A stretch of 64,000 bases of DNA from Escherichia coli (lineage in GTDB: Bacteria > Pseudomonadota > Gammaproteobacteria > Enterobacterales > Enterobacteriaceae), in assembly GCF_050920415.1 (NCBI RefSeq), contig NZ_CP169309.1. One strand, written 5' to 3'. Below, piece by piece: positions 17,657 through 18,477 of this stretch (within the stretch, counting starts at the first letter, position 1; every line of letters starts with the position of its first letter). A program made the position numbers and the translations under genes. Below the pieces are notes generated by a model. It was not told the DNA's origin, ran no database searches, and saw only the letters and a list, made by a program, of their open reading frames with translations.

Positions 17657-18136
17657 ATGGCAAATCCCGTCTATCTGACACTGAACGGAGAACTTCAGGG
17701 GCTGATTTCATCCGGATGCTCGTCAATGCCGTCCATCGGTAACAAAGCCCAGATTGCACATCAGGATCAGATCATGGTGACGTCACTGTCCCATGGTCTG
17801 AGCCGGGCGCAGAATGTCAACCACCAGGAGCTGACCATCACGAAACCGGTGGACAAATCTTCCCCCCTGCTGGGCAAGGCCATTTCGGAGAATGAATGTC
17901 TGACCTGTGATTTTGTATTCTATCGCACCAACCGCTTTGGTGTTAATGAACCGTACTACAAGGTGAAACTGACTAACGCCCGGATCTCAAACATCGGCCT
18001 TACCGTTCCCCATACCATTAACGACAGCCCAGGACAGCCGGAAGAGTCTGTGTCATTTACCTATGAGAGTATCAACTGGGAGCACAGCGTCGCCGGAACC
18101 AGTGCGTACAGCCTTTGGAGTGAACGGATTTTCTAA
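17657..18136 (+). CDS. hcp: T6SS inner tube protein Hcp (TssD)
   Basis: The listed ORF (17270) starts inside the preceding gene; ATG at 17657 preceded by AAGGAGA gives 159 aa, typical Hcp size. Sequence MANPVYLTLNGELQG...SYESINWEH is Hcp-like. Confidence 0.92.
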   Translation: MANPVYLTLNGELQGLISSGCSSMPSIGNKAQIAHQDQIMVTSLSHGLSRAQNVNHQELTITKPVDKSSPLLGKAISENECLTCDFVFYRTNRFGVNEPYYKVKLTNARISNIGLTVPHTINDSPGQPEESVSFTYESINWEHSVAGTSAYSLWSERIF

Positions 18137-18213
18137 GTTACCTAGGAGTTTTTCATCTGCATTATTGTTATATTTTAAAAAGGCAATTTAACATCATAAA
18201 ATAAAATGATAAA

Positions 18214-18253
18214 GTACGGTTAATCACGAATAAAAATTCTTAATTAACCGTAC
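18214..18253. other. Perfect 11-bp inverted repeat (GTACGGTTAAT / ATTAACCGTAC) with 18-nt AT-rich loop in the convergent hcp-yafT spacer; possible bidirectional terminator or protein-binding palindrome
   Basis: Read directly from sequence; T-rich tracts flank it on both strands. Confidence 0.5.
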
Positions 18254-18477
18254 CTGCTGTTTTATAGATGTGTATGATGTATTTTTGACAGTTCAACCGA
18301 AAACTCGAACTACAGCTTATATGTTGAGAGAACAATAAATAACTTTAGTAAAGTTTTTTACTACTCCTAAAAAAATATATATGTAAAATTAATTAGCAGA
18401 CTTGAACCAGAGTATAAATAGAAAAGAAAATGCTCTTTCTTGCTAAGTACCATTAAAACGTCTGGTATAAAACCTTA

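What the first reader, a model, noticed from the sequence alone, without database searches (positions are those of the whole stretch)
17657..18477. T6SS operon ends at hcp with no vgrG, PAAR or effector/immunity genes before the core genome
Gene clusters of this kind usually carry vgrG and cargo genes directly after hcp. Here hcp (159 aa, no C-terminal extension) is followed only by a 340-bp AT-rich non-coding spacer and then convergent yafT. The window therefore has a complete-looking structural apparatus but no spike or toxin. The spike and effectors are presumably upstream of tssC or at orphan loci elsewhere, or this end of the island has been eroded.
Basis: partly seen in the sequence, partly recalled or inferred. 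Interest (0 to 1): 0.45.

Follow-up and report, generated by a model that had tools for sequence, protein, structure and literature searches.

The report
Known E. coli T6SS-2 island end
The type VI secretion operon does end at a plain hcp gene with nothing behind it, but this is the normal, published layout of the E. coli "T6SS-2" island, whose spike and toxin genes sit in a second operon just upstream of the window, so the finding is ordinary.

Summary
No VgrG, PAAR, Rhs, Tle1 or Tae4 homolog of the reference set occurs in the window.

The explanation is already published. This is the E. coli T6SS-2 island at tRNA-Asp (aspV). It has two divergent operons: tssB to hcp2A (the window's operon), and hcp2B-vgrG-PAAR-effector/immunity, which starts about 1.5 kb before window position 1. 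The two nearest genomes (4 and 10 SNPs per ~20 kb) carry 2-3 vgrG, 1-2 PAAR, and Tle1/Tli1. One of them also carries Tae4 and an M23 peptidase there.

Erosion is not supported. The same spacer occurs once each in 581 of 5,426 complete E. coli genomes, including IHE3034, S88 and APEC O2:K1. It keeps its length, drifts at about the neutral rate, and holds no remnant of the cargo genes tested. Empty slots also occur in five other genera and in Escherichia whittamii.

Two corrections:
- vgrG follows hcp2B, never hcp2A, in any genome examined.
- yafT is part of the island, not core genome; the true boundary is aspV (19593).

Side note: other alleles carry small cargo-like genes after hcp2A. K-12's ykfM and its neighbouring pseudogene are a relic of one.

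The parts
1..17639 (+). Structural operon of the E. coli T6SS-2 island, cut at the window start. Genes: tssC 3' part 1-558, tssE 563-988, tssF 994-2835, tssG 2799-3848, tagH 3865-5145, tssJ 5142-5666, tssK 5669-7015, tssL/icmH 7038-7793, tssH/clpV 7803-10535, vasI 10532-11275, tssA 11280-12722, tssM 12832-16269, vasL 16281-17639.
   Evidence: NCBIfam hits for TssC, TagH, VasI, TssA and VasL/TssA-N. PGAP annotation of the near-identical genomes, transferred by offset. ORF list. tssM is an open frame in the window; it is a pseudogene in N96.
17657..18136 (+). hcp2A-position gene: terminal Hcp/TssD tube protein, 159 aa, no toxin extension.
18137..18477 (.). Non-coding 341-bp AT-rich spacer: the empty 'cargo slot' of the alpha allele.
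   Evidence: 27% GC. No ORF above 31 aa inside it. No Rfam family. Present once each in 581 of 5,426 E. coli genomes, unannotated in the rows shown. 92.7% identical to IHE3034 with small indels, close to neutral. No tblastn remnant of beta or gamma cargo proteins; best E 0.037 in low-complexity AT-rich sequence.
18214..18263 (+). Candidate intrinsic terminator of the tssB-to-hcp2A operon: 11-bp stem (18214-18224 / 18243-18253) with an inner 4-bp stem, then CUGCUGUUUU.
   Evidence: The hairpin is in both the MFE and centroid structures of 18125-18290; z = -2.88 and 0 of 200 shuffles fold as well. It is 100% conserved between the window and IHE3034, while substitutions lie elsewhere in the spacer. 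The simple consensus scan did not call it: the loop is longer than 8 nt and the U-tract is short. It is therefore inferred, not shown.
18478..19263 (-). yafT: lipoprotein (lipobox LLAGC), Pfam PF25851 'YafT', convergent with hcp2A. It is the last gene of the island, not core genome.
   Evidence: ORF and annotation. PF25851. Absent at the empty site in SE15, which reads yafV-98 bp-aspV. Homologs sit in the same convergent position after vasL-hcp2A in 15 loci of other genera, next to tRNA-Asp, tRNA-Ser or tRNA-Phe.
19593..19669 (-). tRNA-Asp (aspV): the integration site and true right-hand boundary of the island. Core genome (dnaQ onward) starts beyond it.
   Evidence: Rfam tRNA 67.7 bits. Annotation. 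In strains without the island, similarity to the window begins at 19587-19593. SE15 empty site.

Best explanation
The window holds the right-hand two-thirds of the E. coli T6SS-2 genomic island, which is inserted at tRNA-Asp (aspV) and lies between aspV and yafV.

The island has two divergently transcribed units.
- Structural operon: tssB-tssC-tssE-F-G-tagH-tssJ-K-L-clpV-vasI-tssA-tssM-vasL. It ends with a plain tube-protein gene, hcp2A, and most likely terminates at a conserved hairpin in the AT-rich spacer.
- Spike/cargo operon: it starts about 0.7 kb upstream of tssB on the other strand. It carries a second, only 29% identical hcp (hcp2B), one to three vgrG genes, PAAR genes, adaptors and effector/immunity pairs.

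The window begins inside tssC, so the spike/cargo operon is simply out of view. Nothing is missing from the hcp2A end. In this allele (the ExPEC/APEC type) the slot between hcp2A and yafT is stably empty.

Shown: gene identities, synteny, the upstream operon in near-identical genomes, and population conservation of the spacer. Taken from the literature: operon structure by RT-PCR, H-NS repression, and Hcp2B/VgrG2-dependent effector delivery. Inferred: terminator function of the hairpin, and that the window's own genome carries the same upstream arm.
For: (1) Identity of the locus.
- Window 1-24000 matches E. coli MFDS1022581 at 100.0% (rounded) and N96 with 10 SNPs.
- Both have, divergent from tssB: hcp (172 aa), vgrG, M35 peptidase, PAAR, vgrG, DUF4123 (Tla1), three DUF3304 (Tli1a), Tle1. 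MFDS1022581 also has Tae4, a second PAAR, an M23 peptidase and a third vgrG split by IS21.

(2) The reference NMEC strain IHE3034 has the same aspV-yafT-spacer-hcp2A...tssB | hcp2B-vgrG-DUF2169-PAAR-like toxin-small ORF layout. This is the hcp2B-vgrG2-DUF2169-xmtU-xmtV operon of Ma et al. 2018.

(3) Literature.
- 'vipA2-hcp2A' and 'hcp2B-vgrG2' are transcribed in opposite directions, and hcp2B-xmtV is one operon by RT-PCR (PMC5874247).
- The EHEC EDL933 T6SS-2 island is divided into a structural operon and a vgrG operon (PMC7216683).
- The STEC O22:H8 T6SS2 is described as 'divided into two operons'.
- IMT5155 GI-16 (= T6SS2) lies directly downstream of tRNA-Asp next to yafT (PMC4232414).

(4) The spacer is a stable feature.
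- 581 genomes, one copy each, 579 full-length.
- Divergence is neutral-like.
- The hairpin is conserved.

(5) Empty hcp2A-yafT slots of 60-440 bp also occur in Pseudocitrobacter, Citrobacter, Enterobacter, Lelliottia, Phytobacter and E. whittamii.
Against: - The exact source genome of the window is not in the collection. The best matches differ by 4 and 10 SNPs, and they differ from each other in the content of the upstream cargo arm (IS2/IS21 insertions, number of vgrG genes). The upstream arm of the window's own genome is therefore inferred, not read.
- The hairpin fails the simple terminator consensus.
- Equating the 159-aa protein with the published 'Hcp2A' rests on its position and on strain type (IHE3034, S88, APEC O2:K1), not on a direct sequence comparison with the published protein.
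Confidence: 0.9

Rival explanations
1. Erosion: a vgrG/effector module once followed this hcp and was deleted, and the 341-bp spacer is the scar.
For: - Other alleles of the same island do carry genes between hcp2A and yafT. The beta allele has a 304-aa protein plus YkfM; the O157 allele has 73-aa, 198-aa, DUF1311 and 98-aa ORFs.
- The rare mosaic strain HH45 has a truncated beta cargo gene joined to about 110 bp homologous to window 18344-18455.
- The spacer is AT-rich like those cargo genes, which are 31-39% GC.
Against: - No vgrG lies after hcp2A in any genome examined, in E. coli or in 24 vasL-hcp2A loci of other genera.
- There is no nucleotide or protein remnant of beta or gamma cargo in the spacer.
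- Spacer length is fixed at 337-342 bp in 579 of 581 genomes spanning lineages about 7% diverged. Any loss would therefore be ancient, not erosion in this strain.
- The nearest Hcp2A relatives outside E. coli mostly have empty slots.
Confidence: 0.07
2. The spacer is not empty: it encodes an unannotated small protein or sRNA, for example a small immunity protein or a regulator.
For: ORFs of 22, 28 and 31 aa exist in it. The region 18125-18290 folds better than shuffles, z = -2.88. Weak sigma-70-like matches lie at 18174-18215.
Against: - No Rfam match.
- Divergence from IHE3034 is neutral-like.
- 1-nt and 3-nt indels fall inside the 28-aa ORF region 18367-18453.
- The promoter-like count, 9, is within about 1.5 sd of the shuffles, 5.6 +/- 2.2.
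- PGAP calls nothing there in the genomes listed.
- The stable fold is explained by one terminator-like hairpin.
Confidence: 0.05
3. The system in this strain is spikeless or defective at this locus and relies only on orphan vgrG/Rhs islands elsewhere in the chromosome.
For: - The exact source genome is not available.
- One alpha-type strain lost the whole cluster upstream of hcp2A by IS3.
- N96 has a tssM pseudogene and one vgrG pseudogene.
- IS elements interrupt the arm in MFDS1022581.
Against: - The window's structural genes are intact, including tssM.
- Both nearest genomes retain at least one (N96) or two (MFDS1022581) intact in-cluster vgrG genes next to hcp2B.
Confidence: 0.05

Closest known systems
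E. coli T6SS-2 ('T6SS2') island of ExPEC/APEC/NMEC: APEC TW-XM, RS218, IHE3034, IMT5155 GI-16 (Ma et al. 2018, PMC5874247; Zhu Ge et al. 2014, PMC4232414)
   Same: - Same chromosomal site (aspV/yafT to yafV) and same gene order from tssB to vasL-hcp2A.
- Same ~340-bp spacer, 93% identical, and the same convergent yafT.
- Identical hcp2B protein (WP_001142963.1).
- Divergent hcp2B-vgrG operon.
   Different: The cargo arm differs. IHE3034 has one vgrG with DUF2169 and an XmtU-like PAAR toxin. The window's nearest relatives have 2-3 vgrG with Tle1/Tli1a and an M35 peptidase, and MFDS1022581 adds Tae4 and an M23 peptidase, with IS2/IS21 and a group II intron. Structural genes are about 95% identical.
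EHEC O157:H7 EDL933 T6SS-2 island (Wan et al. 2017, PMC5363993; PMC7216683)
   Same: Same site, the same two-operon architecture, and a terminal 159-aa hcp after vasL (z0247 in PMC7216683).
   Different: It is only about 85% identical in DNA. Its hcp2A is 69% identical in protein. The slot after hcp2A is filled with four small ORFs of 73 aa, 198 aa, DUF1311 (with a signal peptide) and 98 aa. The cargo arm carries a PAAR-Rhs.
Hcp-ET effectors: Hcp with C-terminal toxin extensions (Ma et al. 2017, as summarised in PMC6730261)
   Same: Hcp of Enterobacteriaceae used as a cargo vehicle, with immunity genes directly downstream.
   Different: The window's Hcp has no extension, at 159 aa against a 167-position profile, and no downstream immunity gene.
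Vibrio cholerae large VAS cluster, vipA/B-vasA..vasL-vgrG3 (from memory, not tested here)
   Same: Same accessory set: FHA protein TagH/VasC, VasI, TssA/VasJ, VasL after TssM.
   Different: In V. cholerae, vgrG-3 and its immunity gene follow vasL, and hcp genes are at auxiliary loci. Here hcp2A follows vasL and vgrG is in the divergent operon. There is no VasH sigma-54 activator in the window.

Membership tests
E. coli T6SS-2 island (aspV-linked, two-operon type) | Core genes tssA-C, E-H, J-M and hcp in the order tssB-C-E-F-G-tagH-J-K-L-H-vasI-A-M-vasL-hcp | tested here: met
   NCBIfam hits and transferred PGAP annotation. tssB and the 5' part of tssC lie outside the window but are present in the near-identical genomes.
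E. coli T6SS-2 island (aspV-linked, two-operon type) | Location directly downstream of tRNA-Asp aspV, between yafT and yafV | tested here: met
   aspV at 19593-19669 and yafT at 18478-19263. yafV is at the far end in N96, MFDS1022581 and IHE3034. Matches the GI-16 description in PMC4232414.
E. coli T6SS-2 island (aspV-linked, two-operon type) | Second, divergently transcribed hcp2B-vgrG-effector/immunity operon upstream of tssB | tested here: met
   [not shown]
E. coli T6SS-2 island (aspV-linked, two-operon type) | Operon structure (co-transcription) and H-NS repression | not testable with these tools
   Taken from RT-PCR and qRT-PCR in PMC5874247. The K-12 yafT locus is a transcriptionally silent protein-occupancy domain (PMC4191405).
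Hcp/TssD tube protein (TIGR03344, PF05638) | Full-length match to the Hcp profile with no extra domain | tested here: met
   204.6 bits against a cut-off of 58.9, residues 1-156 on profile 1-166/167. PDB 6a2v and 3he1, E about 1e-22.
Hcp-ET (Hcp with extended toxin) | C-terminal toxin domain fused to Hcp, followed by an immunity gene | tested here: not met
   The protein is 159 aa and ends with the Hcp fold. No ORF above 31 aa lies downstream before yafT.
   Nothing lies between 18137 and 18477. There is no VgrG/PAAR/Rhs homolog in the whole window.

The most novel reading that the evidence does not exclude
The DNA between hcp2A and the tRNA is not inert island edge plus core genome. It consists of two parts.

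(a) A variable cargo slot. It is empty in the alpha allele. In other alleles and genera it is filled by uncharacterised small gene sets that look like Hcp-linked effector/immunity pairs. Examples are a 304-aa protein with two C-terminal hydrophobic segments plus the multi-TM YkfM, and a 198-aa protein plus a secreted DUF1311 protein.

(b) yafT, a conserved island-borne outer-membrane-type lipoprotein that moves with the T6SS-2 island between tRNA-Asp, tRNA-Ser and tRNA-Phe sites. It could be an accessory factor or a conserved immunity/protection protein of this system.

On this reading, K-12's yafT, ykfM and the neighbouring pseudogene (yafU by position, from memory) are the leftover 2.3 kb of a beta-type T6SS-2 island.
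Probability: 0.3. Interest if true: 0.35.

Novelty: already known. Interest (0 to 1): 0.1.

Why it matters
As stated, the finding changes nothing. It rediscovers, from one edge, the published two-operon layout of the E. coli T6SS-2 island, and the 'missing' spike and toxins lie just outside the window.

It has practical value for annotation.
- A T6SS cluster that ends at hcp should not be scored as spikeless or eroded until the region upstream of tssB has been read.
- The island boundary at this locus should be drawn at aspV, not at yafT.

The side observations are cheap leads for assigning function to K-12 y-genes. They do not alter the verdict.
- There is an allelic cargo slot after hcp2A.
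- K-12's ykfM and the neighbouring pseudogene are a T6SS-2 relic.
- yafT travels with the island.

Tried and rejected
- Remnants of a deleted module in the spacer. I ran blastn (word size 7) and MAFFT against the O157 and beta-allele slots, and tblastn with six cargo proteins. No hit was credible. The best was E 0.037, 23 aa in K/I/N/Y-rich low-complexity translation with stop codons. Rejected.
- HH45 mosaic. About 110 bp of the spacer's right half recurs after a truncated beta cargo gene in one genome of 5,426. This is too rare and too short to polarise the history, so it is noted only.
- sRNA or small ORF in the spacer. Rfam E-value scan, ORF list and comparison with IHE3034 gave nothing.
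- Consensus terminator scan. It did not call the hairpin. Folding did. The hairpin is kept as a candidate only.
- Function of the slot proteins (304 aa, YkfM, 198 aa) and of YafT by NCBIfam and Pfam-A. No significant hits. The precomputed Pfam label PF25851 'YafT' carries no function.
- 'YafT is strictly T6SS-2-linked'. Rejected as absolute. E. fergusonii has it next to a T2SS, and Salmonella has it next to an Rhs element without hcp2A.
- Literature search for ykfM together with T6SS: no paper in the library.

Full report
**1. What is at the coordinates**

The ORF 17657-18136 (+) encodes a 159-aa protein preceded by AAGGAG. It matches the Hcp/TssD model TIGR03344 at 204.6 bits over profile positions 1-166 of 167, so it is a plain tube protein with no toxin extension. 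It aligns end to end with solved Hcp structures.

The next 341 bp (18137-18477) are 27% GC, against 51% for hcp and 57% for the operon. They contain no ORF above 31 aa and no Rfam family.

yafT (18478-19263, minus strand, 261 aa, lipobox LLAGC) is convergent with hcp. tRNA-Asp aspV follows at 19593-19669.

Upstream, the window holds tssC (3' part), tssE, F, G, tagH, tssJ, K, L, clpV, vasI, tssA, tssM and vasL. A tblastn with VgrG, PAAR, Rhs, Tle1, Tae4 and adaptor proteins found nothing anywhere in the 64 kb. Positions 19.6-64 kb are housekeeping genes.

**2. Where the spike and toxins are**

The window is E. coli. Positions 1-24000 match strain MFDS1022581 at 100.0% (rounded; 4 SNPs in 20.5 kb) and strain N96 with 10 SNPs in 22 kb.

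In both genomes tssB starts about 1.5 kb before window position 1. About 0.7 kb beyond it, on the opposite strand, a second operon begins.
- MFDS1022581 has hcp (172 aa), vgrG, M35 peptidase, IS2, PAAR, vgrG, Tae4 plus a small ORF, PAAR, M23 peptidase plus a small ORF, a vgrG split by IS21, DUF4123 (Tla1), three DUF3304 (Tli1a) and Tle1. A group II intron and ISAs1 remnants then lead to yafV.
- N96 has a shorter version with two vgrG genes, one of them a pseudogene.
- The NMEC reference strain IHE3034 has hcp-vgrG-DUF2169-PAAR-like toxin-small ORF at the same place.

**3. This is published architecture**

- Ma et al. 2018 describe the APEC T6SS2 as a major 'vipA2-hcp2A' cluster and an oppositely transcribed 'hcp2B-vgrG2' operon. 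RT-PCR showed co-transcription through xmtV. Both units are H-NS-repressed, and Hcp2B and VgrG2 are required for delivery of XmtU (PMC5874247).
- The EHEC EDL933 island is described as a 'structural operon' plus a 'vgrG operon' (PMC7216683).
- STEC O22:H8 T6SS2 is described as 'divided into two operons'.
- IMT5155 GI-16 (= T6SS2) lies directly downstream of tRNA-Asp next to yafT (PMC4232414).

The window's hcp is thus the hcp2A-position gene. It is only 29% identical to the hcp2B-position protein. In no genome examined does vgrG follow hcp2A.

**4. Is the hcp2A end eroded?**

The evidence points against erosion.
- The spacer occurs once each in 581 of 5,426 complete E. coli genomes. It is full-length in 579 and unannotated in every listed row. 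The genomes include IHE3034, S88 and APEC O2:K1.
- Against IHE3034 it is 92.7% identical with a few 1-3-nt indels. That is similar to four-fold-site divergence in vasL (8.8%) and hcp2A (9.6%), so it drifts about neutrally but keeps its length.
- One element is fully conserved: an 11-bp-stem hairpin (18214-18253) followed by CUGCUGUUUU. It appears in the MFE and centroid folds, with z = -2.88. I read it as the operon's terminator. This is an inference, because the consensus scan did not call it.
- No DNA or protein remnant of other alleles' slot genes was found.
- A scan of one genome per species found 24 loci with vasL-hcp2A in other taxa. The slot to yafT is empty (60-440 bp) in Pseudocitrobacter, Citrobacter (three loci), Enterobacter, Lelliottia, Phytobacter and E. 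whittamii. It is filled in others.
- Most of the closest relatives of the alpha Hcp2A have empty slots.

**5.

Other alleles of the same island do carry small genes after hcp2A.
- The commonest E. coli allele (beta) is at 75-78% identity and accounts for about 2,100 of the 2,724 genomes covering at least 80% of the query. It has a 304-aa protein with two C-terminal hydrophobic segments, plus the multi-TM YkfM.
- O157:H7 has 73-aa, 198-aa, DUF1311 (with a signal peptide) and 98-aa ORFs.
- Homologs of the 304-aa and 198-aa proteins follow hcp in Rahnella, Buttiauxella, Yokenella, Atlantibacter and Citrobacter youngae.
- None of these proteins has a Pfam or NCBIfam assignment.

These look like Hcp-linked effector/immunity pairs, but that is inference. 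Hcp2A is also the most diverged structural protein between alleles, at 57-69% identity, against about 85% DNA identity for the cluster as a whole between the alpha and O157 alleles.

**6. yafT is not core genome**

- SE15 shows the empty site: yafV, 98 bp, aspV. In many strains similarity to the window begins only at 19587-19593.
- YafT homologs (46-96% identity, alignment A4) sit convergent to hcp2A in 15 loci of other taxa. The adjacent tRNA is Asp, Ser(GGA) or Phe depending on the genus. yafT therefore moves with the island.
- The association is frequent but not universal. In Hafnia, YafT sits next to an hcp-vasL remnant. In Salmonella it sits next to an Rhs element. In E. fergusonii it sits next to a T2SS.
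- Its modest AF2 model (pLDDT 58) has a PelC/LptE-like lipoprotein core.

**7. Verdict**

The 'upstream of tssC' reading is confirmed in near-identical genomes, and erosion is not supported. The architecture is already known, so interest is low. The residual novelty lies in the side observations: the allelic cargo slot, the K-12 relic, and island-borne yafT.

Noticed in passing
L005 (E. coli K-12 derivative NZ_CP053603.1) 3746-6193; compare L004 2781-5513: K-12 carries the last ~2.3 kb of a beta-type T6SS-2 island. A pseudogene equals residues 187-304 of the beta 304-aa post-hcp2A protein at 100% identity and is cut by an ISAs1 remnant. It is followed by ykfM, yafT and aspV. By position the pseudogene is K-12 yafU and the ISAs1 remnant is yafF (gene names from memory). 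No paper in the searched library links ykfM to T6SS.
   Followed up: partly
L004 2781-4184; L003 27614-29255; loci L012, L021-L026, L029-L038: The slot after hcp2A is allelic. It holds uncharacterised cargo-like gene sets in other alleles and genera: 304 aa with C-terminal TM-like segments plus multi-TM YkfM, or 198 aa plus secreted DUF1311. In Rahnella and Buttiauxella these are repeated in tandem behind orphan hcp genes. They have no Pfam or NCBIfam assignment.
   Followed up: partly
window 18478-19263; L015, L017, L018, L020 (yafT next to tRNA-Ser or tRNA-Phe); L062 (SE15 empty site): yafT (Pfam PF25851) belongs to the island rather than the core genome. It travels with T6SS-2-like islands integrated at three different tRNA genes. 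Its predicted core fold resembles PelC/LptE-type lipoproteins, but the model is low-confidence. The widespread 'aminopeptidase' label on homologs has no support in these searches.
   Followed up: partly
L001 39776-43303 (N96 tssM) against window 12832-16269: The closest relative N96 has an internal stop in tssM and in one vgrG (both pseudogenes), whereas the window's tssM reading frame is open. Four of the 10 SNPs between N96 and the window fall in tssM.
   Followed up: no
[not shown]
   Followed up: no
L007 (HH45) 3544-4131: A single genome of 5,426 is a mosaic. It has a beta hcp2A and a truncated beta 304-aa gene, then ~110 bp homologous to the alpha spacer (window 18344-18455), then the beta-type yafT terminator hairpin.
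   Followed up: partly
L002 3612-4934 and 11172-13136, 20934-22162 (upstream of the window in MFDS1022581): The cargo arm of the nearest genomes is heavily remodelled by mobile elements: a group II intron (ltrA) next to Tle1, IS21 splitting a vgrG, IS2 between modules, and ISAs1 remnants at the yafV edge. Content differs between two genomes that are nearly identical in the structural operon.
   Followed up: no
window ~28287 onward (rRNA operon region) against L009: A naive position-by-position comparison with MFDS1022581 loses register at about 28287, so there is an indel between the window and that genome in or near the rrn operon. The window's exact source is therefore neither of the two best-matching assemblies.
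   Followed up: no
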